Shown here: positions 13,422-36,161 of the stretch, piece after piece
Numbering within the stretch: the first letter of the stretch is position 1
Layout: every line of letters begins with the position of its first letter
Assembly (NCBI GenBank): GCA_041665085.1
Contig: JBAYJO010000002.1
Span: 83,413-147,412 of the forward strand
Length of the DNA: 64,000 bases
Source of the DNA: Patescibacteria group bacterium
Lineage (GTDB): Bacteria > Patescibacteriota > UBA1384 > JBAYJO01
Reading direction: 5' to 3'
Translations under genes and position numbers: made by a program
The notes under the pieces: model-generated
Databases searched by the model: none
Told to the model about the DNA's origin: nothing
What the model saw: the letters and a program-made list of their open reading frames with translations, nothing else

Positions 13422-13664
13422 TTGTGGATAAAATGTGGATAAAATAAGCTTTATAAACATCATTGACAATTAAAACATACACCGCTTAATAATTATCCCA
13501 TACTAATCCACAGAAAAAGTTGATTTATACCTGTTATTATCCCCCATTAATCCACCACCCAATGAGGTTAAATCCACAATATTCACACCCCTTATTATTA
13601 CAGTTATTATTTATATATATGTATATATTATTAAAACAAATGTGGAAAACAATTAAAGAAAAGG
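13422..13664. promoter_or_regulatory. oriC-like region: DnaA-box cluster plus AT-rich unwinding element between dnaA and dnaN
   Basis: Two perfect TGTGGATAA boxes at 13424-13447. Near-consensus boxes follow: TAATCCACA (about 13506), TTAATCCAC, TAAATCCACA and TGTGGAAAA. An AT tract tatttatatatatgtatatattattaaaa lies at 13603-13635. Confidence 0.7.
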
Positions 13665-15933: not shown

Positions 15934-16221
15934 TTGGAAGGTGTGATGGAAAAGATTGATAAGATTATAAATAAAAGATTAAAACAAGGTGATTTTAAAA
16001 AACCAATGAAGGCGGCAATGGTATGTATGATAGTGCAAAAAATCATACCAGAGTGCCGTGTGGTGTCGTTTGATGGGGGTTTACTTAGACTTTGGGCGCT
16101 TGATTATCCTACTGCAAACACAATTATTATGAATCAAATAAATCTTATAAAAGAAATCAATAAAGAACTCAAATTTGAAAGAGTAAAAGGAATTAGAGTA
16201 AGAGTTAAGAACTATTCTTAA
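15934..16221 (+). CDS. DUF721/DciA-like small protein (conserved partner of the dnaA-dnaN-recF cluster)
   Basis: 95 aa. Position and pattern (..VVSFDGGLLRLWALDYPTANTIIMNQ..) are typical of DUF721 proteins. An alternative ATG lies at 15946. Confidence 0.45.
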   Translation: MEGVMEKIDKIINKRLKQGDFKKPMKAAMVCMIVQKIIPECRVVSFDGGLLRLWALDYPTANTIIMNQINLIKEINKELKFERVKGIRVRVKNYS

Positions 16222-19200
16222 TAACCAACATGGACATGATCAACTAAAAGATCATTTGCCCATACGCCGCTATATCCTCTTTCAGAGATTGAACCATAAA
16301 GATCTGTGATTCTTTCCGCTTCTTCTTCAACAGAAGTAAAATTATACATAATTACTTGAGTTGGCCTTAGATACTCGTCGCCGGTAATATCCTGAATACC
16401 TAAAGCATCTTGCATTATTTGTTTTGATTTATAGGTTGCAGCTGCTTTTAATCCGTCTTGATAAGATACATCATTGGTTGGATCAAAGTCAGGCAAAGTG
16501 CAGCTTTCGTCAGCATTATCGAGCATCGGTTTTTTACCGATTTTATTACTATTAAATTTCTTTCGGAAAAAATTAGCTGCGTCTTTGGTAATGCCTGCCG
16601 CGATAGTATAGTCCTTACCCATATTTGGATAATAGCCGCAAGCTGAACACCTGTAGTCGACACTTTTTATTCTCATGCCGAATAAATTAATAACCAGTAC
16701 TATGGCAAGTCCTATTAATGGGTTTGTTCCAAATGCCCACCCAATTAATGATCCGGCAATACCTGAAGTTGAGCCTGGCATCAATCCCCATTTTTCATCT
16801 AGCTCGGCAAATTGTTTTTTGAAAATTGTTTGAACAACAAAAGACACTACAGCTCCTTCTACTTGTTTCATGTCTGATGAGGCATCGGCTTGAGCTTTTG
16901 TGTCATTGGCTGCTTTTGCGGCGATATAGGCTTTATGAGCTGCGTCGTATGCCTTGTACATCGTGTAAACTTGATAAGCTGTGCCTATATCCAGCTTCAA
17001 CCATTCGTCAACTTTGCTCATAAGCGAACTCCAAACATAATCTTTCATTACATCTTGGAATGATTGGCCGATATCGGTTCCATTTACATCACGAGTGTCT
17101 GTATTCCAGTGATTTTGACTAGCTGCAAAAAGAGATAGAGTAAATCCTGGTGGAGGAAAACCTTTGTTTCCAAAAACTTCAACATTTAGATAATTATCAA
17201 TAGTATCGCAAATTGCTGAATTTTTTATTGCATTAAAATCTCTTTTGTCAGGCGATGTTGAAAAATAATTAATCAATGTAGGAAGCGTGCCGCCGGTTGC
17301 AAGAGCTTGAATTAGTTTGTTGTCCGGGTTATTTTCTTTAAGCGTTAATTCAATAACTCCTCCCATTGCCATCATTCGATCAACAGTGTTTCCTTCAATC
17401 ATTGATCTTGTAAAACCATGAGGGATGTTTGGATTATTTTTCCATAACATACTGTCTGATAATTTATAAAATGGTTCGGTTTTCCAGTATTTTTTTTGTT
17501 TTAAGACTGCTTCGTCTCCTATTTCTGTTGCATATTCAAGTTGGTTTGTTGCGTATGTTGCTCTGTCTGCAGTGATGGCATCAACATCGCTTGCCGGAAT
17601 ACCTCCAAGTAAGGCTTGTTGTCTTAAATTTTCTTCTGCAATTACACTGCTATTAATATCTAATGTGTCAGGTGGTAATGTTTGATAATAAGATATATCG
17701 GAATTTAAATCAGCCCCGTCACCCTTTAATGCTGAAAGTGTGAGAGTAGCATCGTTTGGCGGAGGAAAATAAGCTTGTCCATCACCCGTGCCAACACTTT
17801 GACTATAACCATAGATTTTGCTGGCAGTTGCTTCAGGATCGTTGATAATTATTCTGTCACTTAAAGAACTAGTGGTTCCAGGTGGTAGTATTGTAGTTGG
17901 CGGATATAGCTTTTCGTATTCTTTAGCTCCAAGCGCTTGGGCTCTTTTTCTTATTTCGCTTTCAGTTTCAGCGTTTCCTTCTATTGCATATTTAAAATCA
18001 TTGTAAGTAAATTTGTAATCGTCAGGCAAATTAGGAATACCGGCAGACAGTTGGTTCCCGGCATATTCAGCAAATTTTACATAAGCAAATATTTTATAAT
18101 CTCCTCTGATTAATCTGTGAGCGTCTTCTTGAGGAATCAGTATTCCACTTGATGATCCGATTTTTTCAATTACTTTTAATTCAACGCCGCTTTCAATTAT
18201 TCCCATGGCCGCTCTACCGGTAGCAGTCGTTGCTTGCTTACGGCATGACGAAGGATCTACCGGATTTTCACATGTTATATCATATTGTGTTTGATAAGCA
18301 TTAAATAATTTTTGCGTAAATCCGTTGAATCCATATTTACTTAAATCAGAACAAGAATCATCCTTTTCGCAGTCCGGTCCCAGCCCAAGCAAAGAGTCGA
18401 TTTTTATAAAACCTTGATTTAACATTATATTTTTTGCTTCGGCCGGATTTAAAATTATGCTTTTGATTGTTCCTGGTGTAAAACTGGCGGTTTGGTCTAA
18501 ATCTATTGAAAAAGCAGCACTGAAATTATCATATAATTGAGCTGTTCCGATTCTTTGTTTTGCCGGATCACTGCTTGTTAAGTTATTGTAGGTTGCAACA
18601 AGACCATGGTCCGGGTCAGCTAGGGAAATATTATATTTATTCTCGAGGTTTAAAAGTTGATCTAATTTGGTTGCCGCAAGATTTGTAAATACTTGTTTTG
18701 AAGTTTTACTTCGATATTCTTTAGGAGTAATTTCTCCTTTTAACATTTTTGCGGTTGTTCCGGTAACAAGAGAAAGATTGCGATCTATTTCTGCAAGTCG
18801 GTACTGAAAATTTCTTGCTTCATTCATCAGTTTTTCTGAATAATGTTGAGCTCTCAATTTATCAAGCGGTAAATATAAATAATTATCTGTATAATATGTG
18901 TCCGGATCTGTTATTTTTGTCATCGGTGCAATAGCTTCTTTAACCCAAGTGACAATTTGCGTTTTATCATTTATAGCTTGTTGAAATTTTTTGTAAGTCG
19001 GACTGTTTAGATTCTGATCAACAATATCTATTCTTAGTTGATCCCAATCAATGTCGATTTTATTTTTTAAAATATTTGGTAAACCAAAACCGGTAATAAA
19101 AGCATAAGTATTTTTTGAAATTGTTTCATCTAAATTATCGGAAAATGAGTCAGAGATTAACCCGATCGTGCCTTCAAGGTGAGCATTTCCAACGCTATTT

Positions 19201-22200
19201 ACTAGATCAGATGGATTTAAGCTAGATAAATTGATTGGACGATCAACACCTAGTAAATTTGACAGTTTAATTCCGCCGATTTCAGCAAGCAAGTACTTTC
19301 TTTCATCATTACTTTTTGCTGTTACTAATTTATATCCATAATCTTCCGGAAGGCCAAATTTATCTTCGATTCTTTTTCCACCGATTTTTGCAAATGGATC
19401 AAGCGAGCGGCCAATTAATATATTGTAAAGATCTTCTGTGGTCAGTTTTTGTCCCATGAAGTTTACATTGCTATCGTACAAGGAATCAGAGATTTTAAAT
19501 CCAAGTTGATATGCTCCAACTTTTTGGCAATATTCTGTAACTGTTATTTTTCCCGAAAGCATTTTTTGAGTTGTTCCATGTTCGATGGAAAGTTTGTCAT
19601 CGATTTCATTAAGGTTTGACGCATAGTCCTCCCAGAAGAGATCTTCGCTTAGTTGAATTAAATTCCACAGGAGAGGTGGCTTTCCAGCAGTAAGTTCATA
19701 AGGCATATTGAAGATTTCTGATACTCGTTTTTCAGTTTCTTGATCTGTTTCGCCGGTTGGTCTTGTTGCAACAAAAGCTGATTCAAGTTTCATCAAAAGC
19801 CCCATTGATTTATCTTGGTAGCTAGCAGTAGATACAAAACTTCCTGCCGGGAGATCCAGTTTTTCTTCGATAGCTGCTTGTCCAACAGATTGTTTTAGTG
19901 TGTCTTGGCTTTTAGTTGTTGCGGCCATGAAATATTGCAGAGAATTGGTAGGCATTTTTAAGGATTGTTCAGTTTTTCTGGCGGCAATAGTTTTGGCAAA
20001 ATTTTTAATTTCTTTTGGGTTTTTTGCTAAATATATTAAATCTTTTTTAGTGATAAGAGTTGTCGAATTATCCGGGGTTGATTGTGTACTCGGGTCAGAA
20101 TCAATAGCGTCATAGTTTTCTTCAATCTCTTCTCCTTTAACTATTTCTTTGATGTCTTTATTGATTACTTTTACATCTTCTTTTGTTTGATTTTTTATAC
20201 TTTCATTTTCCGGTTTATCAAGTTCTGCCTGAAATTTTTGCCAATTTTCTGTGATTCTTCCAACAGTTGGGCTAACTTGATTTATTGCCATATGTTTTGA
20301 AAGCAGATCAAATTCTTGTCTGATGTTTTTTACATAATCTTTCAAAACTGTTTTAGAGGAGTCGATTGAATTTATGTTTTTTTCTATATTTTCAGTACGC
20401 GACCGGATATCATTAACTCTTGTAGTATAGAAATTAATATCATTGTTAATTTTTATAAGTTTTTGAACCGAAGAACTGTCATTTAATTTTGTTTGTAATT
20501 TTTGACCAACTGTACTGTTCTTCAGTCCTTCGAATAAATAATGTTGACCTTCTTGTTTGAAGACATCGGATGTATTTCCAAATAAAAATATTTTATTTAT
20601 ATCTCCTGATTCTACGGTATAAAATTTCGATGTAAATTCATTTTCGTCTATGCTTGTCTTCTTGAATGCTTCGCTTAGTTTAAAATCAGGATTTGTTTTG
20701 ATATCAAATTGAGGTAGATGAAATGGATCATTGCTATACATAGATATTGATTCTATCGGTTCAATTTTGTTTATAAATACAAGATCTTTAGTCATTGTAT
20801 CTTTATATTGAAGGAGCCAGTGATAAAGTATTTCCCTTTGATCATCAGCGGTTGAAAGTACTTTAGATATTTCGTAAGCACCAATTGTTTCTAATTTTGA
20901 TCTATCTCCAGCTAAAAGCGGATCTATGCTTCCTTCAGGAATATCCAATGCTTCATCTCTTTTATTTCCTTGCGGCACTCCGCCTTCTTCTGTTGTGGCA
21001 GAATCACTAGGGTTTTTCGTACCAGCTGCAACATTCCAAGGATAATTTTTATATTGTTCAATTGTGCTTGCTTTTAACTCGTTTGTTATTTGTTCTTTAA
21101 GCCAAGCTACATTATGGTTGTTCAAAAAATTTGCTGTTGTATCTGTTTTGACTCCAAATCTTTCATCAGCAAGATATGGATTTGCTCTGATCCAATCTGC
21201 TCTTTCTTTTCCCATTGCAGTCATAAATTTATCAAAATCATTTGTTGCAAGGCTGTTTTCTTCAAGATATAGATTACCTTCAAGCAGTCTTTGTGCAATT
21301 CTTTCATTTAAACTAGCTGCCGATGTAATTTTGTCATAATCAAAAGTTCTAATTGGAAGATTTAATTCTTTTTCAATTTTTCGGGCACCTGCATTTCTTA
21401 AAATTTCAAGATTATTTTTTCCACTCAAACTTCCTGTTGGAAGTCCGAGCGATTGTTCGATGTAATACTGACCAATTGATGTTTCAAGTTCGTTAGTGTC
21501 ATTTCCCTGGATTGTTTGTCTTGGAACGCCAAGTTGATCGGCAATAATGGCGCGTCCGAGATTATCCATTATGTCGTCAAAATTTGTTCCTTGCCAACTA
21601 TGAGATGGGCTTTGAATGACTTGTTCAAATATTCCCCGTCCGATAAAGGTGGCGACATTAGATAGATTAATGGTGCTACTAAATTCATCTGAAGAATATT
21701 CATCTTGACTAATTCCAAGCTGATCAAGCAATTCTAAAAAGCTTACATTTGTAAGAGAATTTGCAAGCGCGTTGATTGATATTCCCAATGTTTCTTCGGA
21801 GCTGCCAAATTTGCCGCCTTGCCAGGAAATTTTGATTGCGCTTGGATTCATAGCTGTTGTTTCTGTTTTGGTAGTTCCAACCCAGTTTTTTTTAACTACT
21901 TTTACAGAACATCTCAAGTAGTCTACTGTTGCGACGTCAACTGCTTGGGAAAAACCCGAATCAGGATAAGCGTGCGAAAGAATTGAAGGTTCGGTCGATT
22001 TATTTACATCACTGTCTGATGCTACAATTTGTGATATTTGTATAAGCTCATGTCCGGCACCTCCCCTGTCTTTTGGTGTGACAAGATAAATTATAAAAGC
22101 CTTGACTCTTCGATCAACTTTATTTTGACGAATTGCTTCTAAGTCTTTTTGAGTAATAATCAATTTTTGCGTTTTATTGGCATAGTTCCAATAGGAATCA

Positions 22201-22541
22201 AAATATGATGTTGCAGCTCCATTAAAATCAGCATCAGCAAACACTCCTTGCCATTCTGGCGGGAATTCAATTACTCCGGAAATAGAGGTTTTGGTTAGTA
22301 TTGCTTGCATCTGGGAAAGTCGTTCACCGGTAAATGTAACCATTGCTGATTTATTTTTTTCACCGGGTTCGGCAATTCCGCCGGAAAGAGCAAGTTTGTC
22401 TTTTTCATTTAATAATTCTTCGCCAACATTTTCCGCTTGAGCCTTTTTTGCATTGTAAAAGTCACTAAAACCGGCAAAACTTGGTGTTAGAAGCGCGATG
22501 ATCATGTATGTAATTGTAATTTTTTGCCAATGCCTAAGCAT
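16218..22541 (-). CDS. Giant (2107 aa) secreted/surface protein with C-terminal TM anchor; last gene of the T4SS-like operon
   Basis: Signal peptide MLRHWQKITITYMIIALLTPSFAGFS. A single TM helix near the C-terminus (LIGLAIVLVINLF), followed by a Cys-containing tail. No recognisable catalytic motifs. Confidence 0.6.
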   Translation of the reverse strand: MLRHWQKITITYMIIALLTPSFAGFSDFYNAKKAQAENVGEELLNEKDKLALSGGIAEPGEKNKSAMVTFTGERLSQMQAILTKTSISGVIEFPPEWQGVFADADFNGAATSYFDSYWNYANKTQKLIITQKDLEAIRQNKVDRRVKAFIIYLVTPKDRGGAGHELIQISQIVASDSDVNKSTEPSILSHAYPDSGFSQAVDVATVDYLRCSVKVVKKNWVGTTKTETTAMNPSAIKISWQGGKFGSSEETLGISINALANSLTNVSFLELLDQLGISQDEYSSDEFSSTINLSNVATFIGRGIFEQVIQSPSHSWQGTNFDDIMDNLGRAIIADQLGVPRQTIQGNDTNELETSIGQYYIEQSLGLPTGSLSGKNNLEILRNAGARKIEKELNLPIRTFDYDKITSAASLNERIAQRLLEGNLYLEENSLATNDFDKFMTAMGKERADWIRANPYLADERFGVKTDTTANFLNNHNVAWLKEQITNELKASTIEQYKNYPWNVAAGTKNPSDSATTEEGGVPQGNKRDEALDIPEGSIDPLLAGDRSKLETIGAYEISKVLSTADDQREILYHWLLQYKDTMTKDLVFINKIEPIESISMYSNDPFHLPQFDIKTNPDFKLSEAFKKTSIDENEFTSKFYTVESGDINKIFLFGNTSDVFKQEGQHYLFEGLKNSTVGQKLQTKLNDSSSVQKLIKINNDINFYTTRVNDIRSRTENIEKNINSIDSSKTVLKDYVKNIRQEFDLLSKHMAINQVSPTVGRITENWQKFQAELDKPENESIKNQTKEDVKVINKDIKEIVKGEEIEENYDAIDSDPSTQSTPDNSTTLITKKDLIYLAKNPKEIKNFAKTIAARKTEQSLKMPTNSLQYFMAATTKSQDTLKQSVGQAAIEEKLDLPAGSFVSTASYQDKSMGLLMKLESAFVATRPTGETDQETEKRVSEIFNMPYELTAGKPPLLWNLIQLSEDLFWEDYASNLNEIDDKLSIEHGTTQKMLSGKITVTEYCQKVGAYQLGFKISDSLYDSNVNFMGQKLTTEDLYNILIGRSLDPFAKIGGKRIEDKFGLPEDYGYKLVTAKSNDERKYLLAEIGGIKLSNLLGVDRPINLSSLNPSDLVNSVGNAHLEGTIGLISDSFSDNLDETISKNTYAFITGFGLPNILKNKIDIDWDQLRIDIVDQNLNSPTYKKFQQAINDKTQIVTWVKEAIAPMTKITDPDTYYTDNYLYLPLDKLRAQHYSEKLMNEARNFQYRLAEIDRNLSLVTGTTAKMLKGEITPKEYRSKTSKQVFTNLAATKLDQLLNLENKYNISLADPDHGLVATYNNLTSSDPAKQRIGTAQLYDNFSAAFSIDLDQTASFTPGTIKSIILNPAEAKNIMLNQGFIKIDSLLGLGPDCEKDDSCSDLSKYGFNGFTQKLFNAYQTQYDITCENPVDPSSCRKQATTATGRAAMGIIESGVELKVIEKIGSSSGILIPQEDAHRLIRGDYKIFAYVKFAEYAGNQLSAGIPNLPDDYKFTYNDFKYAIEGNAETESEIRKRAQALGAKEYEKLYPPTTILPPGTTSSLSDRIIINDPEATASKIYGYSQSVGTGDGQAYFPPPNDATLTLSALKGDGADLNSDISYYQTLPPDTLDINSSVIAEENLRQQALLGGIPASDVDAITADRATYATNQLEYATEIGDEAVLKQKKYWKTEPFYKLSDSMLWKNNPNIPHGFTRSMIEGNTVDRMMAMGGVIELTLKENNPDNKLIQALATGGTLPTLINYFSTSPDKRDFNAIKNSAICDTIDNYLNVEVFGNKGFPPPGFTLSLFAASQNHWNTDTRDVNGTDIGQSFQDVMKDYVWSSLMSKVDEWLKLDIGTAYQVYTMYKAYDAAHKAYIAAKAANDTKAQADASSDMKQVEGAVVSFVVQTIFKKQFAELDEKWGLMPGSTSGIAGSLIGWAFGTNPLIGLAIVLVINLFGMRIKSVDYRCSACGYYPNMGKDYTIAAGITKDAANFFRKKFNSNKIGKKPMLDNADESCTLPDFDPTNDVSYQDGLKAAATYKSKQIMQDALGIQDITGDEYLRPTQVIMYNFTSVEEEAERITDLYGSISERGYSGVWANDLLVDHVHVGY

Positions 22542-25995: not shown

Positions 25996-27042
25996 TTAAT
26001 TGAATTTATAAAGATAATTATTTGAAAGAAAATAAATCAAATTATTGCTGTCCAGCAGGATAGTGGTTGGATCTAAATTTTCTCCTATAAATTGTTTTTG
26101 TTCAATTGTGTTGGTCTTGGTGTCGGCGATAAATATATTATCCTCTGAAGTGACCTTATTATTTAAGCTATAATAAAGTTTATCGCTAATTAGATTAAAT
26201 TTATCTAGATTTTGGTTGTTTGTAATATTGTTGATTTTAAAGATTGATCCGTCGGTTGTATTGATTATTTCAAAAATATTATTATCTTCTTTTTTATACT
26301 GAATCAATATTTTTTGTTCTGACGGGTATATTTTTTCAGTTATAAAAACATTTTCATAAAGAATATCCTTTTTTTTACTTTTCAGGTTTAATCTTACAAA
26401 GTCAACTAACATATCTTCTTTGACGTTTTCACAATAAATATCTTGAGTATCGGGGTTGTAATATTTGAATTCATCACAATTTTCCGGGTCGCTGATTTTT
26501 TGAAAGTTAGTTCCGTCCCAATCAGATTGGTTAATAGATACTTTACTAACATCTAAATATTCATAAATTAATTTATCGTCTGACCAGTAAGGATCGAAAA
26601 TATTTTCATTTAATTTACTAAGCTTTTCCTGTTCTAAATTGTAAGTATAAAAAATTTCAAGATTATTTATCTGATCAGTAGTGTTCATTAAAATGAGTTT
26701 TTTGTCATTTGACCAACTAACATAATTAATATAAGGAACATCTATAGGATAATTCTTAATGGTTGTTTTGTCTTTTAAAGAATATTTAATAATTGCTTGT
26801 TCCTTTCCAGCGATATATAATAGTTCCGAATTTTCATTTATAGTGGGAAAAAATATAGTATCATTTAAAATTTGTTTAGCATTTGTAGTTTTTGTTGAAT
26901 TAGTATTATTGTTATTTTTGTTTTTATTTAGAAGTAAAAACATAATTAAAAGTCCAAAAAATAAGATTATGATTGTGATAATTAATATTATTTTTTTTCG
27001 ATTATTTAACATGTTTTCCTTTCTATTAAGGGCAGACAGCAC
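25996..27042 (-). CDS. N-terminally anchored beta-propeller-like protein (hypothetical)
   Basis: TM helix, an Asn/Thr-rich linker, and a repetitive beta-rich region. Overlaps the upstream gene by 17 nt. Confidence 0.45.
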   Translation of the reverse strand: MLSALNRKENMLNNRKKIILIITIIILFFGLLIMFLLLNKNKNNNNTNSTKTTNAKQILNDTIFFPTINENSELLYIAGKEQAIIKYSLKDKTTIKNYPIDVPYINYVSWSNDKKLILMNTTDQINNLEIFYTYNLEQEKLSKLNENIFDPYWSDDKLIYEYLDVSKVSINQSDWDGTNFQKISDPENCDEFKYYNPDTQDIYCENVKEDMLVDFVRLNLKSKKKDILYENVFITEKIYPSEQKILIQYKKEDNNIFEIINTTDGSIFKINNITNNQNLDKFNLISDKLYYSLNNKVTSEDNIFIADTKTNTIEQKQFIGENLDPTTILLDSNNLIYFLSNNYLYKFN

Positions 27043-28207
27043 CTTTGCTTTTTAAATAATAAATATGACTACCAAGAAAAGCAGAAGGATTTAATAAAGA
27101 TGCAATTGGGTAGATTGGATTGCGATTCATGGGATCAGCTAAAATAAAATTTGTATTATCCGGACTAACTCCTATTATTAGCACTCTATGCGCGCTACTT
27201 GTAAACGATTTTCTTCCTGGAATGTTGGCTGTTGTGTTTGCTCCAATGACTACTGGGATTTGTTGGTTTAAATAACATTTTATTTTTTCTAGTGTCGGCG
27301 GGCGTTTAGCAGAACCAAGTGGTACATATTTTATTTTTCCAGACAATTCTGTTGGTGTTGAGGTTGGAAGTCCCCATGACATATTATTGCCTCCCGGTGT
27401 GTATAAATCCCAAACTGTATCAGGAATAATGATTTGTTTCTGCATGGCATAATTTACTGCCATGCAAACCGAAGTGACAGCGCATCCAACTCTTCGAACC
27501 AAAGGATTGCTTGCCTCTGTTTGATATAGTCTGTAAGGATTAAAATTAGCAAGGCTTCCAGCAATAATATTTTCGATTTCATAGAAATATTGGTATGCTT
27601 CTATTACTCTCCCAACATAAGGCCTTGTTTCTTTGAATGTTTGGCCAACAGACCATGGTTTGCCCGAATTGTATCTTGAGGCTGCATCGCGTAATTTATC
27701 TAAATCAGTTGTATTTCCACCCGCACCATTCATAGCGCATAGATGTGCGGCAGCGAAGGCCGAATCCCAGATATTTTGTATTTCCATTCGTCCATCACCG
27801 TTACCATCTTGTTTGTGACCTTCCCATGTTATTGGCATAAATTGAAATGGTCCGCTTGCTCCGACTGTAGATGATGCCCAAGGTCCTGTAATGTCCGGCC
27901 AAGGAATACTTGGATTAAAATGAAAATCTGAATGGCCTCCTCCATGTTCCCCACCCATGAACATCGCGGCAATAAAAGCAGGTTGTACTTTCCATTTTTC
28001 TCCTGCTGCTGAAAACACTTTCGCATATTCTTCAGGAATATTTTTGAGTCCACCCTCGGCAAACATCTCAGCGGTTTTGCCGGGATTGTCGCTTTGGTTT
28101 CCGGCAAATAGGCCAAGAGCAAACATTGCTCCGATTGCAACAAAAACTACAACAATAATTATAATTACAATTTGAATAAATCCTTGATTTTTCTTTTCGC
28201 TTTTCAT
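27026..28207 (-). CDS. Bifunctional cell-wall hydrolase: lytic transglycosylase (SLT) domain plus C-terminal CHAP/C39-like cysteine peptidase domain (VirB1/PrgK/TcpG-like)
   Basis: N-terminal TM helix. SLT motif GASGPFQFMPITW. C-terminal RVGCAVTSVCMAVNY ... HRVLIIGV suggests a Cys/His peptidase. Located immediately downstream of VirB4. Confidence 0.55.
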   Translation of the reverse strand: MKSEKKNQGFIQIVIIIIVVVFVAIGAMFALGLFAGNQSDNPGKTAEMFAEGGLKNIPEEYAKVFSAAGEKWKVQPAFIAAMFMGGEHGGGHSDFHFNPSIPWPDITGPWASSTVGASGPFQFMPITWEGHKQDGNGDGRMEIQNIWDSAFAAAHLCAMNGAGGNTTDLDKLRDAASRYNSGKPWSVGQTFKETRPYVGRVIEAYQYFYEIENIIAGSLANFNPYRLYQTEASNPLVRRVGCAVTSVCMAVNYAMQKQIIIPDTVWDLYTPGGNNMSWGLPTSTPTELSGKIKYVPLGSAKRPPTLEKIKCYLNQQIPVVIGANTTANIPGRKSFTSSAHRVLIIGVSPDNTNFILADPMNRNPIYPIASLLNPSAFLGSHIYYLKSKGAVCP

Positions 28208-30066
28208 GAGCTTGATGATGTTGTTGACTGCGAGGCGAGTTCTCTTGCCGCTAGGATTTCTTTTGGATCGGTGGTAATAAGTTGATCTTCAGTGTATGAC
28301 GCGATCATTTTAATGGCAACATGATTCATGCCGGCAAAGAAAATACCCTCTCCTACTCCTGATTCAAGGAGAAGCATTTTTTCACCCTCGGTTAGATTGA
28401 ATACTTCAACGACTTTATCAATTGCTGAAGTGGATTGCTTAAGAAGGATCTGCATTGCCGCATTAGAGATAACACTTCTACCGTATTTTGAATCCAAAAA
28501 ATCTTCAACATCTTGACTGATAATACTGACTCCAAGATAATATTTTCTTGCTCTTTTAACGAGCGAGTAAAGGAATTTTGCCGAGTCTTCATATTGCATC
28601 ATCCACCATGCCTCATCAATAATTAGCAGTCTTCTTTTTAATTTAAATCTGATTTGACTCCAAATGTAAGTTAAAATCATATACATTCCAATTGGACGAA
28701 GTTCATCTTCAAGATCTCGAACCGAGAAACAAACGAATTTATTGCTTAAATCAAAATTGGTTGGTTTGGTAAATAGTCCGGCAAAACTTCCTTCGGTGTA
28801 TTTTTGCAATTTCTTAACCATATTTTCTGCGCCGTTCATATTGGTTAAAATGCTTTGAAGATCTGTTATTAATGGTGCGGGGTTTTTTTGACTTTCCGGG
28901 TCGATGGTAATATCTTTTAAGGCATAAGTTTCATATAAAGCCTTATCCATAATGCCGTCTTCTTCAGGTGTTAATCCTTGCAACATCAAACCAAGAAGGC
29001 CATGTAAGGTTGCGATAGTTGTTCTTAAGTTGTCTTCACCTGATTCACCATCCATAACTGCCGGAAGATCAAACGGGTTAATTCTGGTATCAGAGTTAAG
29101 TGAAAGGTTTAGATAACTTCCACCAACTGCTTCGCAAAGTTGTTTGTATTCATTTTCAGGGTCGATAATAATTACATCAGTATCAAGCATCAGATATCTG
29201 ACAGCTTCGAGCTTGATTGTGTAAGATTTACCGGCACCGGTAGTAGCGAAAATTACAGAGTTAGCGTTTTCTAAATTAAATCTATCAAATAAGACCAGTG
29301 AATTATTATGTCTGTTTAGTCCGTATAATATTCCTTCATTTGAGGTTAAAGTGGCGGAAGTGAATGGGAATGTGGTTGAAAGCGATCCCGTATCAAGATT
29401 TCTAGCTACATTTAATTGATCATGGAAAAGTGGAAGAGTAGCGGTAAAGCCTTGTTCCATCTGAAGAAGAGCCTGTTTTGTATAAATCAGCATTCCGCCA
29501 AGGGTTGATTCAAGCTGTTTTGAAACAGTATCAAGATCTTTGACCGAATCGGCATAAATTGTAAAATAAAGGGCAAATTGGAAAAGTCTGACCTCTCCTC
29601 TTTGCAGGACATCTCGCAATTCTTCAATATCTGAAATTGCGGTTTGGAGTTCAGGGTCTCGGATAATTCCTTTTTCCCGTTGGATTGATTCAGTTGATTC
29701 CAGCTGTGTAGCTTTTCTTCTTAAATTATTCATAACTTCATTAGATTTCAAAGGCATAATATTCATAGCGATATCTAAAGTTACATCGAAATCAATAATT
29801 GGTGAGATCCAATTAGTTTGAATGTAGCGCGGATAAGTGAAAACAAATAATGTGCGAGCAAATTTGTTGCCTATTTGAACATAATTTGGCTTGACCATAA
29901 AAGCAGCTGGAGCAATAAGATCAAGTACATTACTTAAACCTTGTTTGAATGTCATTTCCAGATTGCTGTTTGCTATTCCCGCGGCTTTATTTTCTTGTTT
30001 GGTGGGAGCAGGACTTTGCGGGGCAGTATTATTTTTATTTTCTATAGGATTATTTTGTGGTGGCAT
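28204..30066 (-). CDS. virB4: VirB4/TrbE/CagE-family T4SS ATPase, ATPase portion (C-terminal 620 aa of a split VirB4)
   Basis: Walker A ATTGAGKSYT, Walker B LLIIDEAW, and an FVFTYPRY region. Own SD GGAAGGAGAAA directly before the ATG. Confidence 0.75.
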   Translation of the reverse strand: MPPQNNPIENKNNTAPQSPAPTKQENKAAGIANSNLEMTFKQGLSNVLDLIAPAAFMVKPNYVQIGNKFARTLFVFTYPRYIQTNWISPIIDFDVTLDIAMNIMPLKSNEVMNNLRRKATQLESTESIQREKGIIRDPELQTAISDIEELRDVLQRGEVRLFQFALYFTIYADSVKDLDTVSKQLESTLGGMLIYTKQALLQMEQGFTATLPLFHDQLNVARNLDTGSLSTTFPFTSATLTSNEGILYGLNRHNNSLVLFDRFNLENANSVIFATTGAGKSYTIKLEAVRYLMLDTDVIIIDPENEYKQLCEAVGGSYLNLSLNSDTRINPFDLPAVMDGESGEDNLRTTIATLHGLLGLMLQGLTPEEDGIMDKALYETYALKDITIDPESQKNPAPLITDLQSILTNMNGAENMVKKLQKYTEGSFAGLFTKPTNFDLSNKFVCFSVRDLEDELRPIGMYMILTYIWSQIRFKLKRRLLIIDEAWWMMQYEDSAKFLYSLVKRARKYYLGVSIISQDVEDFLDSKYGRSVISNAAMQILLKQSTSAIDKVVEVFNLTEGEKMLLLESGVGEGIFFAGMNHVAIKMIASYTEDQLITTDPKEILAARELASQSTTSSSS

Positions 30067-30748
30067 TTTCTCCTTCCTTGGTTGAGATTAATGCACTTTC
30101 TAAAACATTAACATCAGCTAATTTTTCTTCTGATGATTCTTCAGGGTTATAAATTTCATAAAATAATTCAACTAATTCTTGGGTTGATAACATTGCAGCC
30201 CGAAGTCCAAGACTGGCAAGTCCGGAGACGATCACACCTGTTCTTTCTGTTATTAGGGATTTGTATTGCAACAGTTGTTTTTCATCAATATTAATAGTTT
30301 GCTGCGATTTGTTTCCAAAAAGACCTGAAAATAAACCTCCGCCCGGTTTATTTAAGACCGGTGGCGAGTAAGGGACAACGACGAAAAATTGTTTATCCAT
30401 AATGTTTGCGATATTGATCAGTCTTTGAACATATTCAATATAATCAGCGATCTGGATACTCATAAGTTCATTTTCTTCAGCTTCTAACTTTTTCTTTAAT
30501 TGATTGATATAAGGTGTCAAATCGAGTTTTTTTGACCTGACAATAATTTGGATAGGAAATTCAAGAGAGTTTAAAAAACCTTGATAGGAAAAGATTAAGG
30601 CATTTTGTTCTCGCTCTGATTTTAATGCAAAGTTGACCGAGCTTACCAAAAGAACAGCACGAAAATCACCTGTTTTTAAAATGACTAATTCGTCGCGAAT
30701 CTCGGCGATGTCAAGATGTTGTTGTGTGCTGGACTGTTTCTGTGCCAA
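30050..30748 (-). CDS. VirB4 N-terminal domain protein (CagE_TrbE_VirB-like), separate ORF
   Basis: DIAEIRDELVILKTGDFRAVLLVSSVNFALKSEREQNALIFSYQGFLNSLEFPIQIIV matches the VirB4/TraC N-terminal consensus. Its TAA stop lies 14 nt after the ATG of the ATPase ORF. Confidence 0.6.
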   Translation of the reverse strand: MAQKQSSTQQHLDIAEIRDELVILKTGDFRAVLLVSSVNFALKSEREQNALIFSYQGFLNSLEFPIQIIVRSKKLDLTPYINQLKKKLEAEENELMSIQIADYIEYVQRLINIANIMDKQFFVVVPYSPPVLNKPGGGLFSGLFGNKSQQTINIDEKQLLQYKSLITERTGVIVSGLASLGLRAAMLSTQELVELFYEIYNPEESSEEKLADVNVLESALISTKEGENATTK

Positions 30749-31436
30749 GATTTCCTCCAGTTAAATTATTTGGCGCAATTGGTTGGTTATTTATTGGTGT
30801 TTGCCCGGTAGGCGGGGCTTGATTTGGTAGAGGAGTAGAAGCTGTTGGTTTGGCTGATTTCATATTGGATATATCTGTTATTGGTGCAGGGGCTGACATT
30901 GTTTGTAATTCTTTTGCCTGTTTCATTTGTTCGACTTGCATTGATTCAGTTGTGTGAGGGGTTTCAACTTTTTCGAGTGATTTCCATCCCCCGCTGTCTA
31001 ATGTCTGTGCTAATTTCTGCAATTCGGATTTGCTAATTTTCTTTTTAGGTAAAGTTGGTTCAACGCGTTTTTCCTTGTGAGGAAGAATTATAGCTTCTTG
31101 CATTGAACCTTTTTGCCATACTCTTTCGCGCGGCTTGGTAATAAATGAAATTAAAGCAAGAATAAAATGTGAAAATGGTTGATCTTGAGGTTTGTAGAAA
31201 GTAAAAGCCAAGATAAGAATTGCTGTTGGTAATCCGGTCGCAATAAAAAGAGGCATTGGTAAAGTCGTTAGGAGAATATAGATAATAGAGCCTCCGATTG
31301 CAACAAAAATAAATTGCTTCAGCGTAAGAGGTCCGACAATTTTATCCTCCATATCTATGTTTTGCGGTACTCGGTATTGCACTTCCCTCCTTAGAGAATG
31401 TTTGGCTCTGCGTCTTGTCAGCAGACCTATTGTCAT
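30711..31436 (-). CDS. VirB3/PrgI-like small membrane protein with Pro/Gln-rich C-terminal tail (start uncertain)
   Basis: Two TM helices (FIFVAIGGSIIYILLTTLPMPLFIATGLPTAILILAFTF) directly upstream of VirB4. Alternative starts: GTG after SD AAGGAGG (about 31382) or ATG at 31352. Confidence 0.4.
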   Translation of the reverse strand: MTIGLLTRRRAKHSLRREVQYRVPQNIDMEDKIVGPLTLKQFIFVAIGGSIIYILLTTLPMPLFIATGLPTAILILAFTFYKPQDQPFSHFILALISFITKPRERVWQKGSMQEAIILPHKEKRVEPTLPKKKISKSELQKLAQTLDSGGWKSLEKVETPHTTESMQVEQMKQAKELQTMSAPAPITDISNMKSAKPTASTPLPNQAPPTGQTPINNQPIAPNNLTGGNLGTETVQHTTTS

Positions 31437-33188: not shown

Positions 33189-36161
33189 CTATATAGTTCC
33201 ATTAGTTGGAGGAGGAGTTGGTTCTGATGGTGGAGGTGTCTGTTGTTCTTGGACTGGTGGAGTCGGTGCTTGTTCGGCTGGTGGTGCGGATTCTGTGTGT
33301 GGTGCCCCTGTTGGGGTTTGACCGGTGTTTTCTGCAGCAGCTTCCGTATTTATTGTAACGGCTGGGGCAGTATTTGGTGAATTTTTTGGCGTACTCTGAT
33401 TAACTCCTTGCTTAACAGCTTGACTGAAAACTCTTTTAAATTTACGGCTGGTTAGAACTGAACCTAGTTCGGCAGCAGAGCTAATAGGTTTTATGCTTGT
33501 TTGAGATGCAGCGGTTTTAAAGGCTGATTGAAGCATAGGTTTTAGGTTGTTTATGTTTTTTAAATTTTCTCCCATACCTTCAATACTTGAAGCGATTTTT
33601 TCGAGTGGTCCGGTTAGTTTTTCTTCAAGTCCTTCAAAACTGCCGTTTGATGTAGCTAAGTGTTGTTGAGTAATTGATTCGGCTTGTTTGGCGGCGTAAC
33701 CTTGTCTGTAAATTGACCGGTGATTTGCTTTTTGAAGGCTTTCTATGACCGGTAAACTTGTTTCACTAAATTCCGGTTTTTGAAATTCTTTATAAATATC
33801 CTCGCTTTTTAAGGTTTCCATTCCTTTGATAACATGCTGAATATTTCTTTTCATGGTTTCTTCATCAGGCGAGGCTTCTGCTATTGCAGGAGAAATATTC
33901 TTTAGCTCTGCGTGACGAATTTCAAAAGAACGGTTGCTTGATCCGATCTCTTCCATCTGATCCTGCACCTTGCTTAGTGTTTCTTCATTAATTTCTGTAC
34001 CGTTTAATTTAAGTTGCCTTGCAACTCCCAGCGCTTCGATACCGGCTGTTTTTTCGGTTGATTCATAAATATGGTCGGCAAATTTTTCCAGATATTTATT
34101 TTCTCTAGCCCTTTGTCCTTTGGCCGATCCTTCAAGTTCAGTCCATTGGGTGGTTGTGATATTGCGGTTTCCTCCGTATTTCGATGAGATATCTTGATAA
34201 GTGGCGCCAGAGTTTATTTCATCTAAAACCGCACTCGCGTCAACTGATTCACCTAAAATACCTTTAACTTTATCTTGATCAGCGCCCATTGAAACATCGT
34301 CATTAGTTTTTTCAGTCATGCGGTCTGTTCTTGATTGGTCGATTTCTTGTAATTTAGAAATTTCATCGGCTGTAAGATTTTGTCCGTCTTGTTTAACAAT
34401 AATTGCTCCTGCTTTTAAACCTGCCAAAGCTTTATCTGTGTCGACATCGTTGCCTAGAATTTTTTTTATTGCCGATTCTTCTTTTTGGCTTATAGCATTT
34501 TCGAGTTCATTTGCCATATCGTCAAAAGTTCGTCCGCTACCTGTTCCAGCAGCAAAAGCCGGGATAGGGCGTCCACCTCCGCCGCCAGCGCCTGCTGCAG
34601 CTTTAGCAGCAGCTGTTCTAGCCTCTTTTAATAAGTCGGCGGCTCCTTTCTTTCCTCCTGATGATCTAGTAAGTTGTATCCATCTGTTAAATTGTTGAAC
34701 TAAATCTGCTCTTTCTTCAAGTCCAAGTGCATCGAGCCCTTCTATACCGGTTTTTTTTGATGAAATTTTTGCAGGGCTTAAGGTTAGCATTTCTGTTAAC
34801 TGTTTATCTTCCAAGGTAATTCCTTTTGCGGCTAAATCAGCTTGAGTTTTATTGAATTTATCCCATACAATTTTAGGATCGTTTACAAAGCCGTTGATCT
34901 CGCCTTTTTCTTTGAGATATGCCATATAGCTTGGTTTTGATCCGGCCAGTCCACCAAAAATTCGGCCTTTTTTAGCATCTGATATTCTGGCTTTTTCTGC
35001 ATCTTCAGTTCTCATTTTCCAAGCATCTTTTGCGCCATAGAAATTTGTATTTTTAAAACCTTTTCCTACCGTGTTTTTAATCCATGCTTTTGCTCCTCTG
35101 TCAGTATCTTTGGCTTTAATGCCTGATCCTTTACTCCAAACTGATCCATAGGCTTTGCTTGCTAGTCCTCCGCCTTGTTTAAGAAGCCCGGACCAAGCTC
35201 CCATAACTCCGCCTCCCATGCTCAAAGGTATTTTTGCCGAGTAATATAAAGCGCCAATTAAGATTAAATATCTCATTAAAGCCATTCCTTGGCTTGGAGT
35301 GGCTCCTCCGCCTAAAGCATCAGCAATTGTAACGCCTATCCATATGACGAAGAAAGTTATGCAAGGCATAAATGTCCATTTAAAATACAAGTCCCACCAT
35401 TGCTTGAAATATTTCTCTGTAATTGGAAATCCAACCGAGAAGAATGCAATTGGTGAAGCGATAGTTAAAGCTATAACAACAAAATATCTGATATAGAAAA
35501 GTAAAATCAAAGCCCAGAAAAATAAAATTGGGGCAAAAAGCAAGAGTACTAGAAGAATAAATGCTCCGCATCCACCAATAAATATCCACGAAACAACAAT
35601 GCCGATTATGCCCAAACTAGCTACTCCGGAATTTGTCCATAAGCTCATACTTTCAATAGTTCCGATTCCAAGTTGTTCATAGACTTTCTCAAGCAAACCT
35701 CCTGATCCTGAACCCACGGCGGTTGCCGAACCCATTGTTAATAACCAATTTGAAAAAACAGCAGATGCTTCAAGAAGAAGTCGGCAGACTAAAAGTGAAA
35801 AGTTGGCTAAAATTGCGCCCAAAATAAGTGATGGCAGAATCTTTTTAATAGAATATGTGTCAATATTGAATCTTAAGACATTGGCTGTACCGGTAAAAAG
35901 TATAAAAATTACAAACAGTGAGTTTGACATGGCAAGTAATACTTTCCATGCACTCATAACTCCGCTTTCTACAATAGTGTCGGAAAGTTGTTTAAAATCA
36001 GGGTCAGCAGCATAGACATTTTTTATGATTGGCAGATTGTGTAATGGATTTAAAAGAGTATCAAAATCGATTTGATACAAATTTTTAAATACTATAATAC
36101 CGACAAAAATAGAAATAATTGCTGACAAGCCGATTTTTAAATAATTAAGCTTTTTTTCCAT
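33189..36161 (-). CDS. VirB6/TrbL-like polytopic membrane protein with about 650-aa hydrophilic C-terminal extension and Pro-rich tail
   Basis: At least 7 TM helices in the first 330 aa. A long K/A/G/E-rich C-terminal region ends in PTPPVQEQQTPPPSEPTPPPT. Confidence 0.5.
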   Translation of the reverse strand: MEKKLNYLKIGLSAIISIFVGIIVFKNLYQIDFDTLLNPLHNLPIIKNVYAADPDFKQLSDTIVESGVMSAWKVLLAMSNSLFVIFILFTGTANVLRFNIDTYSIKKILPSLILGAILANFSLLVCRLLLEASAVFSNWLLTMGSATAVGSGSGGLLEKVYEQLGIGTIESMSLWTNSGVASLGIIGIVVSWIFIGGCGAFILLVLLLFAPILFFWALILLFYIRYFVVIALTIASPIAFFSVGFPITEKYFKQWWDLYFKWTFMPCITFFVIWIGVTIADALGGGATPSQGMALMRYLILIGALYYSAKIPLSMGGGVMGAWSGLLKQGGGLASKAYGSVWSKGSGIKAKDTDRGAKAWIKNTVGKGFKNTNFYGAKDAWKMRTEDAEKARISDAKKGRIFGGLAGSKPSYMAYLKEKGEINGFVNDPKIVWDKFNKTQADLAAKGITLEDKQLTEMLTLSPAKISSKKTGIEGLDALGLEERADLVQQFNRWIQLTRSSGGKKGAADLLKEARTAAAKAAAGAGGGGGRPIPAFAAGTGSGRTFDDMANELENAISQKEESAIKKILGNDVDTDKALAGLKAGAIIVKQDGQNLTADEISKLQEIDQSRTDRMTEKTNDDVSMGADQDKVKGILGESVDASAVLDEINSGATYQDISSKYGGNRNITTTQWTELEGSAKGQRARENKYLEKFADHIYESTEKTAGIEALGVARQLKLNGTEINEETLSKVQDQMEEIGSSNRSFEIRHAELKNISPAIAEASPDEETMKRNIQHVIKGMETLKSEDIYKEFQKPEFSETSLPVIESLQKANHRSIYRQGYAAKQAESITQQHLATSNGSFEGLEEKLTGPLEKIASSIEGMGENLKNINNLKPMLQSAFKTAASQTSIKPISSAAELGSVLTSRKFKRVFSQAVKQGVNQSTPKNSPNTAPAVTINTEAAAENTGQTPTGAPHTESAPPAEQAPTPPVQEQQTPPPSEPTPPPTNGTI

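What the first reader, a model, noticed from the sequence alone, without database searches (positions are those of the whole stretch)
28204..30748. VirB4 encoded as two separately translated polypeptides
The 232-aa ORF carries the characteristic VirB4/TraC N-terminal domain and ends in TAA. The 620-aa ATPase ORF starts 14 nt upstream of that stop with its own strong SD (GGAAGGAGAAA) and ATG. This looks like a genuine two-gene arrangement rather than a sequencing frameshift. A split VirB4 is unusual and may be lineage-specific.
Basis: seen in the sequence. Interest (0 to 1): 0.55.

Follow-up and report, generated by a model that had tools for sequence, protein, structure and literature searches.

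The report
Two-gene VirB4 (TrsD plus ATPase), already known
The secretion-machine motor VirB4 really is encoded here as two overlapping genes, but this TrsD-plus-ATPase layout is the published norm in Patescibacteria and in staphylococcal conjugative plasmids, so the locus is ordinary.

Summary
A 232-aa ORF (30050-30748, minus strand) overlaps a 620-aa ATPase ORF (28204-30066, minus strand) by 17 nt. The second ORF is in the +1 frame and has its own Shine-Dalgarno (SD) sequence and ATG.

It is a real two-gene arrangement, not a frameshift error:
- In 79 of 79 related genome loci with enough downstream DNA, the two genes are adjacent and never fused.
- The junctions fall in all three relative frames, from about 119 nt of overlap to a 464-nt gap.
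- The small protein matches the first ~170 positions of full-length VirB4 profiles; the large protein starts at about position 180-290.
- The small protein's predicted fold hits only R388 TrwK/VirB4 in the PDB.
- One rare natural orthologue (898 aa) is fused, with both parts collinear.

It is not unusual or new. The small protein is a TrsD/TraD homologue. The same trsD-trsE pair, broken at the same point, sits in pSK41 and in other Firmicutes and haloarchaeal plasmids. A 2025 survey (PMC12102498) reports TrsD, described as remotely homologous to the VirB4 N-terminus, as the most abundant type IV secretion system (T4SS) component in Patescibacteria: 2,272 homologues, 1,664 of them next to virB4.

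Verdict: confirmed, ordinary, already known. That the two proteins assemble physically into one VirB4 is inferred, not shown.

The parts
30050..30748 (-). ORF-A, 232 aa: soluble TrsD/TraD-like protein, equivalent to the N-proximal part of the VirB4 N-terminal domain (precomputed Pfam PF26593 'TraC-like').
   Evidence: ORF. NCBIfam: TrsD/TraD NF041427 E 2.2e-10, VirB4_plasma positions 100-228/894 E 2.1e-9, TIGR00929 positions 3-171/792 E 0.0024. The ORF-A family alignment A1 against pSK41 TrsD by hhalign gives 84.5% probability, E 7e-6. AlphaFold2 model has mean pLDDT 80.5. The top 14 Foldseek PDB hits are all R388 TrwK/VirB4 chains. No TM-like segment.
28204..30066 (-). ORF-B, 620 aa: VirB4-type ATPase lacking the first ~180-290 positions of full-length VirB4 family profiles. 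It keeps the CagE_TrbE_VirB region plus the P-loop ATPase domain.
   Evidence: Pfam: P-loop_TraG, AAA_10, DUF87, and CagE_TrbE_VirB at aa 64-213. NCBIfam: conju_CD1110 367 bits (cut-off 325) covering positions 181-734/752, TIGR00929 238-725, VirB4_plasma 292-891. BLASTP to pSK41 TrsE gives E 2e-36, aligned from residue 23 to TrsE residue 10. BLASTP to pCF10 PrgJ aligns residues 50-579 with PrgJ 227-772.
30050..30077 (-). Junction: SD GGAAGGAG (30077-30070), ORF-B ATG (30066-30064), ORF-A TAA (30052-30050). The 17-nt overlap puts ORF-B in the +1 frame, a layout typical of translational coupling.
   Evidence: Read directly from the sequence. The nearest relative, L086, has AAGGAGtcacaaaATGcaagcaacTAA with a 14-nt overlap in the same frame.
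29224..29247 (-). Walker A motif ATTGAGKS (ORF-B residues 274-281).
   Evidence: Motif scan.
28612..28629 (-). Walker B motif LLIIDE (ORF-B residues 480-485).
   Evidence: Motif scan.
30711..31436 (-). PrgI-family (VirB3-like) membrane protein, 241 aa, with two TM-like segments. Its 3' end overlaps the ORF-A start by 38 nt.
   Evidence: Pfam PrgI E 3.4e-12. TM-like segments at residues 37-55 and 63-81. ORF coordinates.
27026..28207 (-). VirB1/TrsG-like cell-wall hydrolase, 393 aa (SLT_2 plus Peptidase_C39_2). Its ATG overlaps ORF-B's stop (ATGA).
   Evidence: Pfam. ORF coordinates. The same gene order is seen in L086 and in pSK41.
33189..36161 (-). Tentative only: 990-aa protein with about 5 TM-like segments in its first 285 residues; possibly a VirB6-like translocon component.
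   Evidence: No Pfam hit. Hydropathy scan. Not tested further.

Best explanation
The region is the core of a chromosomal, monoderm-type (MPF-FATA-like) type IV secretion locus in a Patescibacteria genome. Gene order is prgI/virB3-like, trsD-like (ORF-A), virB4 ATPase (ORF-B), virB1-like hydrolase.

**Shown**
- ORF-A and ORF-B are separate, conserved genes.
- Together they are collinear with one full-length VirB4. ORF-A covers about positions 3-171 of the TIGR00929 profile. ORF-B covers the rest of the N-terminal domain plus the Walker A/B ATPase domain.
- The break point is the same as in TrsD/TrsE of pSK41 and in other Firmicutes and haloarchaeal plasmids.
- A rare natural orthologue has the two parts fused through a Pro/Ala-rich linker.

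**Inferred**
- The four genes are co-transcribed.
- ORF-B is translated from its own SD/ATG, which lies inside the 3' end of ORF-A (translational coupling).
- The two polypeptides associate non-covalently to rebuild a complete VirB4 subunit. ORF-A would supply the N-terminal surface that, in R388 TrwK, contacts VirB3 and mediates VirB4 dimerisation. The PrgI-like protein would anchor the assembled ATPase at the membrane.
For: - ORFs, junction and both SD sequences.
- Collinearity with four full-length VirB4-family profiles. TIGR00929: ORF-A 3-171, ORF-B 238-725. VirB4_plasma: ORF-A 100-228, ORF-B 292-891. CD1110: ORF-A 12-84, ORF-B 181-734 (all). Pfam TraC_F_IV: the ORF-A homologue P0240 covers 27-191 and ORF-B covers 271-351.
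- TrwK residues 11-815 map to TIGR00929 3-791. TrwK's N-terminal domain is residues 15-400 (PMC9259494). The break therefore falls inside the N-terminal domain.
- Fold: the ORF-A model has pLDDT 80.5. Its top 14 PDB hits are all TrwK/VirB4 (probability 1.00, E 1e-3 to 2e-2, TM-score normalised to the query (TMq) 0.39-0.48). The next hits drop to probability <0.4.
- Conservation of the split: 79/79 loci have an ORF-B homologue directly downstream and none is fused. Relative frames 0/1/2 occur 24/24/31 times. The first possible ORF-B start lies -119 to +464 nt from the ORF-A stop, median +9.
- Lengths: all 120 best ORF-A homologues are 222-370 aa. All 120 best ORF-B homologues are 592-770 aa and none carries PF26593. 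Of the 150 best 50%-identity representatives, 149 are 171-478 aa.
- Nearest relative (70% identity) has the same layout with a different junction sequence.
- Natural fusion P0197 (898 aa) is found identically on 5 contigs from at least 3 sequencing runs, with a PrgI gene upstream. It is 38% identical to ORF-A over residues 8-237 and 56% identical to ORF-B over residues 269-890. It aligns as one stretch, residues 3-882, to VirB4_plasma 92-893.
- pSK41 carries trsC-trsD-trsE-trsF-trsG with the same break point. The Geobacillus, Planococcus and Haloarcula plasmids do too.
- Literature: TrsD is described as a remote homologue of the VirB4 N-terminal portion. It is the most abundant T4SS component in Patescibacteria, usually next to virB4, and is listed as essential in Ca. 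S. epibionticum ML1 (PMC12102498).
- In R388, VirB3 wraps the VirB4 N-terminal domain, and that domain alone forms the VirB4 dimer interface (PMC9259494).
Against: - No direct evidence here that ORF-A and ORF-B bind each other or PrgI. A two-chain or fused structure prediction could not be run: the combined alignment misplaced the short sequences.
- ORF-A scores far below the curated TrsD cut-off (40.7 against 200 bits).
- The ORF-A profile did not detect a single PrgJ sequence or any PDB chain by sequence.
- The Foldseek TM-scores are moderate, and the tool does not print which TrwK residues are aligned.
- The SD-ATG spacing for ORF-B is short (3 nt), and Met38 is an alternative start.
Confidence: 0.85

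Rival explanations
1. Sequencing or assembly frameshift: a single virB4 gene artificially broken by a 1-nt indel near 30050-30070.
For: The two ORFs overlap and differ by one frame. One lineage, P0197, has a continuous ORF.
Against: - Identical 232-aa and 620-aa proteins occur in independent assemblies from NCBI, JGI, ENA and Logan.
- The 70%-identity relative keeps the split at a junction of different sequence.
- 79/79 loci are split, in all three relative frames and with gaps up to 464 nt.
- ORF-B has its own SD and ATG.
- The fused P0197 joins the parts through a linker of about 70 aa, not at this site.
Confidence: 0.01
2. Programmed +1 ribosomal frameshifting in the overlap produces a fused full-length VirB4 in addition to, or instead of, the two separate products.
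For: ORF-B is in the +1 frame. The overlap ends in A-rich sequence (ACA AAA TAA) next to a stop codon. The same +1 relation is seen in L086.
Against: - No conserved slippery site.
- Across 79 loci the relative frame is 0, 1 or 2 in about equal numbers, and many junctions are intergenic gaps.
- A strong SD plus ATG sits at the ORF-B start in both the window and L086.
- pSK41 trsD and trsE are separated by a 14-nt spacer.
Confidence: 0.03
3. ORF-A is an independent accessory T4SS protein. It is descended from a VirB4 N-terminus but now has a separate role, such as assembly factor or regulator. It does not form a stoichiometric, permanently bound part of the ATPase.
For: [quoted passage not shown]
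- ORF-A evolves faster than ORF-B: 45-57% against 63-72% identity among top hits.
- Some homologues carry long low-complexity extensions.
Against: - ORF-B lacks exactly the region that ORF-A supplies.
- The genes are adjacent in 79/79 loci.
- A natural re-fusion is viable and was recovered in several samples.
- In R388 the N-terminal domain is structurally integral, forming the dimer interface and the VirB3 binding site.
Confidence: 0.12

Closest known systems
TrsD/TraD + TrsE/TraE of the staphylococcal conjugative plasmids pSK41/pGO1 (the pGO1 subclass of MPF-FATA T4SS; NCBIfam NF041427 names the family TrsD/TraD)
   Same: - Same gene order: VirB3-like, TrsD, VirB4 ATPase, then a cell-wall hydrolase nearby.
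- The small protein is about 227-232 aa and the ATPase about 620-672 aa.
- The ORF-A profile aligns to pSK41 TrsD over nearly its full length (hhalign 84.5% probability, E 7e-6).
- ORF-B and TrsE align from their N-termini (residue 23 to residue 10, E 2e-36), so the break point is the same.
   Different: - Sequence is very diverged: ORF-A scores 40.7 bits against a 200-bit cut-off for NF041427.
- The locus is chromosomal and near dnaA in a Patescibacteria genome, not on a conjugative plasmid.
- The hydrolase has SLT plus a C39-like peptidase domain, not CHAP.
- The junction is an overlap, not a 14-nt spacer.
Patescibacteria T4SS as surveyed by Quinonero-Coronel et al. 2025 (PMC12102498): VirB4 clade with associated TrsD, PrgI/VirB3, VirB6 and VirB2-like genes
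   Same: This locus is an instance of it. It has TrsD next to virB4, PrgI upstream, a peptidase/lytic enzyme downstream, and lies close to dnaA.
   Different: Nothing substantive. The paper calls the small protein a TrsD homologue with remote homology to the VirB4 N-terminus and no assigned function; it does not call it a split VirB4. The fused orthologue P0197 and the fold match to TrwK are small additions made here.
Single-chain VirB4 ATPases: TrwK of R388, PrgJ of pCF10, the CD1110 family, Mycoplasma ICE VirB4
   Same: ORF-A plus ORF-B are collinear with these proteins and keep the Walker A/B ATPase domain. The ORF-A fold matches TrwK chains.
   Different: Those are one polypeptide of about 750-900 aa. 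Here the first ~170-230 residues are a separate gene product.
VirB3-VirB4 fusions in some conjugative systems (the opposite kind of rearrangement)
   Same: They show that the boundaries between the VirB3, VirB4 N-terminal and VirB4 ATPase modules are evolutionarily plastic (mentioned in PMC12102498).
   Different: That is a fusion of two proteins, whereas this is a fission. None of the ORF-A homologues with N-terminal extensions that I checked was a PrgI fusion.

Membership tests
TrsD/TraD family conjugative transfer protein (NCBIfam NF041427) | Whole-protein score at or above the curated cut-off of 200 bits. | tested here: not met
   ORF-A scores 40.7 bits, E 2.2e-10, over residues 5-125 against profile positions 12-142/201. 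pSK41 TrsD scores 227.6 bits. ORF-A is a homologue but lies outside the narrow curated subfamily.
TrsD/TraD family conjugative transfer protein (NCBIfam NF041427) | Small soluble protein encoded directly upstream of a VirB4-type ATPase that lacks its N-terminal ~180-290 positions, and downstream of a VirB3-like gene. | tested here: met
   Gene order in the window matches pSK41 trsC-trsD-trsE. The break point is the same.
Pfam PF26593 'TraC-like' domain | Significant match to the Pfam model. | tested here: inconclusive
   The precomputed annotation lists PF26593 for the identical protein P0001 and for all 120 best homologues. The local Pfam copy returned no family for ORF-A, presumably because it lacks that model.
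VirB4 family T4SS ATPase (TIGR00929 / CD1110 family NF045971) | Curated-cut-off match to a VirB4 family model. | tested here: met
   ORF-B scores 367.2 bits on NF045971 against a cut-off of 325. It is below cut-off on TIGR00929 (144.9 against 643 bits), as expected for a monoderm-type VirB4.
VirB4 family T4SS ATPase (TIGR00929 / CD1110 family NF045971) | Walker A and Walker B nucleotide-binding motifs in the C-terminal domain. | tested here: met
   ATTGAGKS at residues 274-281 and LLIIDE at residues 480-485 of ORF-B.
VirB4 family T4SS ATPase (TIGR00929 / CD1110 family NF045971) | A single polypeptide containing both the complete N-terminal domain and the ATPase domain. | tested here: not met
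   ORF-B covers only positions 181-734/752 (CD1110) or 238-725/792 (TIGR00929). The missing N-terminal part is encoded by ORF-A. The requirement is met only by the two products together.
VirB4 family T4SS ATPase (TIGR00929 / CD1110 family NF045971) | ATP hydrolysis, hexamer formation, and binding to VirB3. | not testable with these tools
   Needs biochemistry or a multimer structure.
MPF-FATA-like T4SS of Patescibacteria (PMC12102498) | virB4 with TrsD, PrgI/VirB3 and a cell-wall hydrolase clustered on the chromosome; no outer-membrane core genes; often near dnaA. | tested here: met
   PrgI, the TrsD-like protein, VirB4 and the SLT/C39 hydrolase are contiguous. dnaA lies at 12057-13421, and the Pfam scans of that flank found housekeeping genes and no relaxase. 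Absence of a relaxase or T4CP from the whole window was not tested exhaustively.

The most novel reading that the evidence does not exclude
The fission of VirB4 into a detachable N-terminal module (TrsD-like) and an ATPase body may be functional, not neutral. It could let the cell set the stoichiometry or timing of the VirB3-binding and dimerisation surface independently of the motor. For example, only some ATPase subunits might carry the module, or the module might act as an assembly checkpoint in the non-conjugative, host-interaction T4SS of Patescibacteria. The rare re-fused orthologue (P0197) would then be a natural experiment for testing this.
Probability: 0.15. Interest if true: 0.45.

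Novelty: already known. Interest (0 to 1): 0.15.

Why it matters
It matters little as a discovery. TrsD next to virB4 is documented in staphylococcal plasmids, and since 2025 across more than 2,000 Patescibacteria genomes, where it is reported as essential in the one genetically tractable species.

Three points have some value:
- For annotation, the 232-aa 'hypothetical protein' should be read as the N-terminal module of VirB4 (TrsD-like). The 620-aa 'ATP-binding protein' is an N-terminally incomplete VirB4 that needs it.
- The naturally fused orthologue and the fold match to TrwK support a concrete hypothesis for the still unassigned function of TrsD.
- Structural work on monoderm and Patescibacteria T4SSs should include TrsD when reconstituting the ATPase.

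Tried and rejected
- **Local Pfam scan of ORF-A:** no hit, although PF26593 is precomputed for the identical protein. The local copy appears to lack the model.
- **ORF-A family profile (A1) against all PDB sequences:** only a chance hit at E 0.86.
- **hhalign of the ORF-A profile against the single PrgJ sequence:** nothing. A single-sequence template is too weak, so NCBIfam full-length VirB4 profiles and Foldseek were used instead.
- **Modelling the two parts together:** I aligned the fused orthologue P0197 with both homologue sets. MAFFT spread the short ORF-A homologues over the ATPase region (17% identity instead of 38%), so no fused or complex model was run.
- **Are ORF-A homologues with N-terminal extensions VirB3(PrgI)-TrsD fusions?** No. 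The extensions are Q/P-rich low-complexity sequence with no PrgI hit.
- **Guglielmini et al. 2014 main text:** it does not contain the word TrsD. The statement about homology to the VirB4 N-terminus is therefore cited from PMC12102498.
- **Frameshift artefact and programmed frameshifting:** both considered and rejected on the junction statistics.


Full report
**1.

On the minus strand there is a 232-aa ORF (ORF-A, 30050-30748; TTG start, TAA stop) and a 620-aa ORF (ORF-B, 28204-30066; ATG start). The junction reads caaGGAAGGAGaaaATGccaccacaaaaTAAtcc.
- ORF-B's ATG (30066-30064) lies 14 nt upstream of ORF-A's stop (30052-30050).
- The ORFs overlap by 17 nt, and ORF-B is in the +1 frame.
- A GGAAGGAG Shine-Dalgarno (SD) sequence sits 3 nt upstream of the ATG.
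- ORF-A's TTG has its own GGAGG 5 nt upstream and overlaps the end of the preceding ORF by 38 nt.
- ORF-B's stop overlaps the ATG of the next ORF (ATGA).

So four genes are packed head to tail: a PrgI-family (VirB3-like) membrane protein at 30711-31436, ORF-A, ORF-B, and an SLT + Peptidase_C39_2 cell-wall hydrolase at 27026-28207.

The deposited annotation of the same sequence (a Patescibacteria metagenome-assembled genome) calls the same 232-aa and 620-aa proteins. Identical proteins occur in NCBI, JGI, ENA and Logan assemblies.

One uncertainty remains. Met38 of ORF-B is a possible alternative start, because conservation begins near residue 37-40. It would still be two genes.

**2. What the two proteins are**

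ORF-B is a VirB4-type ATPase.
- Pfam finds P-loop_TraG, AAA_10, DUF87 and CagE_TrbE_VirB.
- It passes the curated cut-off of the CD1110 VirB4 family (367 against 325 bits) but covers only profile positions 181-734 of 752.
- It carries Walker A (ATTGAGKS) and Walker B (LLIIDE) motifs.

ORF-A has no hit in the local Pfam copy. In NCBIfam it matches TrsD/TraD (E 2e-10) and the N-terminal stretch of three full-length VirB4 models.

The two ORFs are collinear and non-overlapping on every full-length model:

| Profile | ORF-A positions | ORF-B positions |
|---|---|---|
| TIGR00929 VirB4_CagE (792) | 3-171 | 238-725 |
| NF045975 VirB4_plasma (894) | 100-228 | 292-891 |
| NF045971 conju_CD1110 (752) | 12-84 | 181-734 |
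| Pfam TraC_F_IV (375) | 27-191 (via homologue P0240) | 271-351 |

(Sources.)

R388 TrwK residues 11-815 map to TIGR00929 3-791. The TrwK N-terminal domain is residues 15-400 (PMC9259494). The break therefore lies inside the N-terminal domain: ORF-A is its N-proximal part, and ORF-B carries the rest plus the ATPase domain.

An AlphaFold2 model of ORF-A built on 33 homologues has mean pLDDT 80.5. Against the PDB, its top 14 Foldseek hits are all TrwK/VirB4 chains of the R388 T4SS (probability 1.00, 180-210 aligned columns, TM-score normalised to the query (TMq) 0.39-0.48). Unrelated folds follow at probability <0.4. The tool does not print which TrwK residues are aligned, so the N-terminal placement rests on the profile coordinates.

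**3. The split is real and conserved**

- The 120 best ORF-A homologues are all 222-370 aa.
- The 120 best ORF-B homologues are all 592-770 aa, and none carries the TraC-like domain.
- A scan of one genome per species returned 80 loci with an ORF-A homologue. In all 79 with enough downstream DNA, an ORF-B homologue follows directly on the same strand, and in none are the two in one ORF.
- The relative frame is 0, 1 or 2 in 24, 24 and 31 loci. The first possible ORF-B start lies from 119 nt before to 464 nt after the end of the ORF-A stop codon (median +9; 12 overlap; 40 lie within 0-30 nt).
- The closest relative (70% and 87% identity) has the same four-gene order. Its junction has a different sequence (AAGGAGtcacaaaATGcaagcaacTAA, 14-nt overlap) that keeps the SD, ATG and stop.

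This rules out a sequencing frameshift. It also gives no support to programmed frameshifting.

**4. A natural fusion exists**

In the exhaustive search, 149 of the 150 best 50%-identity representatives are 171-478 aa. One, P0197, is 898 aa.
- It is 38% identical to ORF-A over its residues 8-237.
- It is 56% identical to ORF-B over its residues 269-890.
- A Pro/Ala-rich linker joins the two parts.
- It aligns in a single stretch (3-882) to the full-length VirB4_plasma model, positions 92-893.
- The identical protein is encoded on five contigs from at least three sequencing runs, downstream of a PrgI gene.

The one-gene and two-gene forms are thus interchangeable in evolution. This is the best available evidence that ORF-A and ORF-B work as one VirB4. 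Other long ORF-A homologues only carry Q/P-rich low-complexity extensions; they are not PrgI fusions.

**5. It is not lineage-specific**

- pSK41 has trsC (VirB3-like), trsD (227 aa), trsE (672 aa, DUF87), trsF and trsG (CHAP).
- The ORF-A profile aligns with pSK41 TrsD over almost its whole length (hhalign 84.5% probability, E 7e-6).
- ORF-B aligns with TrsE from residue 23 to residue 10 (E 2e-36), so the break point coincides.
- By contrast, ORF-B residues 50-579 align with residues 227-772 of the single-chain PrgJ of pCF10.
- tblastn of ORF-A against plasmids finds 47 records, in Bacillus, Clostridium, Paenibacillus, Planococcus (annotated TrsD), Geobacillus and haloarchaea.
- In the three I opened, a VirB4-like ATPase beginning at CD1110 position about 158-183 follows directly. 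In Geobacillus the upstream 318-aa protein covers CD1110 positions 2-174.

**6. It is already published**

Quinonero-Coronel et al. 2025 (PMC12102498) make these points:
- It was the most abundant T4SS component in Patescibacteria: 2,272 homologues in 2,221 assemblies, 1,664 of them associated with virB4. Gracilibacteria are the exception.
- The homologue in Ca. S. epibionticum ML1 is listed as essential.
- T4SS genes often lie near dnaA. In this window dnaA, dnaN and a recF-like gene sit at 12.0-15.8 kb, a few kb from the cluster.

I did not find the word TrsD in the main text of the cited 2014 paper, so I cite the 2025 paper for the homology statement.

**7. How it most likely works**

Shown:
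- Two conserved genes, jointly collinear with VirB4.
- An intact ATPase motif set in ORF-B.
- No TM-like segment in either protein; two in the PrgI-like protein.
- Tight overlap of the reading frames.

Inferred:
- The genes are co-transcribed and translationally coupled.
- The ORF-A product binds the ORF-B product non-covalently to complete the VirB4 N-terminal domain.
- The complex is held at the membrane through the PrgI/VirB3-like protein.

The inference leans on R388. There, VirB3 wraps around the VirB4 N-terminal domain, and that domain alone forms the VirB4 dimer interface (PMC9259494). No tool here could test the protein-protein contacts; my attempt to prepare a fused-chain model failed at the alignment step.

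The main rival is that TrsD has become an independent accessory factor. I give it about 0.12. Assembly artefact and programmed frameshift get 0.01 and 0.03.

**8. Verdict**

It is a routine instance of a described arrangement: TrsD plus VirB4 in the MPF-FATA-like T4SS of Patescibacteria.
- Novelty: already known.
- Interest: 0.15.
- Small additions made here: the exact break point relative to TrwK and CD1110, the fold match of the TrsD-like protein to TrwK, the junction statistics, and the naturally re-fused orthologue.

Noticed in passing
window 12057-15826 (+): dnaA, dnaN and a recF-like gene lie only a few kb from the T4SS cluster (about 16.2-38.3 kb, minus strand). The locus is therefore chromosomal and near the replication origin region, as PMC12102498 describes for Patescibacteria.
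   Followed up: partly
P0197; loci L087 3001-5697, L088 1431-4127, L089 1431-4127: A naturally fused TrsD-like + VirB4 ATPase protein of 898 aa with a Pro/Ala-rich linker. It was recovered identically from at least three sequencing runs, downstream of a PrgI gene. It is the only long protein among the 150 best representatives.
   Followed up: yes
P0261, P0214, P0140, P0253 (homologues of ORF-A): Some TrsD-like proteins carry 90-220-aa Gln/Pro-rich low-complexity N-terminal extensions of unknown role. They are not PrgI/VirB3 fusions.
   Followed up: partly
window 33189-36161 (-): A 990-aa ORF in the same gene string has about five TM-like segments in its first 285 residues and no Pfam hit. It is a possible VirB6-like translocon protein.
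   Followed up: no
window 16218-22541 (-): A 2,107-aa ORF at the downstream end of the cluster has no Pfam hit and one TM-like segment near its C-terminus. It may be a surface protein or an effector.
   Followed up: no
L083 (Haloarcula pelagica plasmid NZ_CP126164.1) 3977-7929: A haloarchaeal plasmid carries a 556-aa protein with an ORF-A-like region, followed by a 761-aa VirB4-like ATPase that starts at CD1110 position about 158. The same fission therefore also occurs in Archaea.
   Followed up: partly
window 30711-31436 (-): The PrgI-like protein is long (241 aa; the PrgI domain is residues 22-107). It has a Pro/Thr/Gln-rich C-terminal tail whose coding sequence overlaps the ORF-A start by 38 nt.
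   Followed up: no
window 30050-30748 (-): The local Pfam-A copy returns no family for ORF-A, whereas the precomputed annotation lists PF26593 (TraC-like) for the identical protein. This looks like a library-version gap, not a biological signal.
   Followed up: partly
window 8091-9623 (-): A PilB/T2SSE-type ATPase with an MshEN domain, i.e. a type IV pilus or type II secretion motor, is encoded on the other side of dnaA.
   Followed up: no
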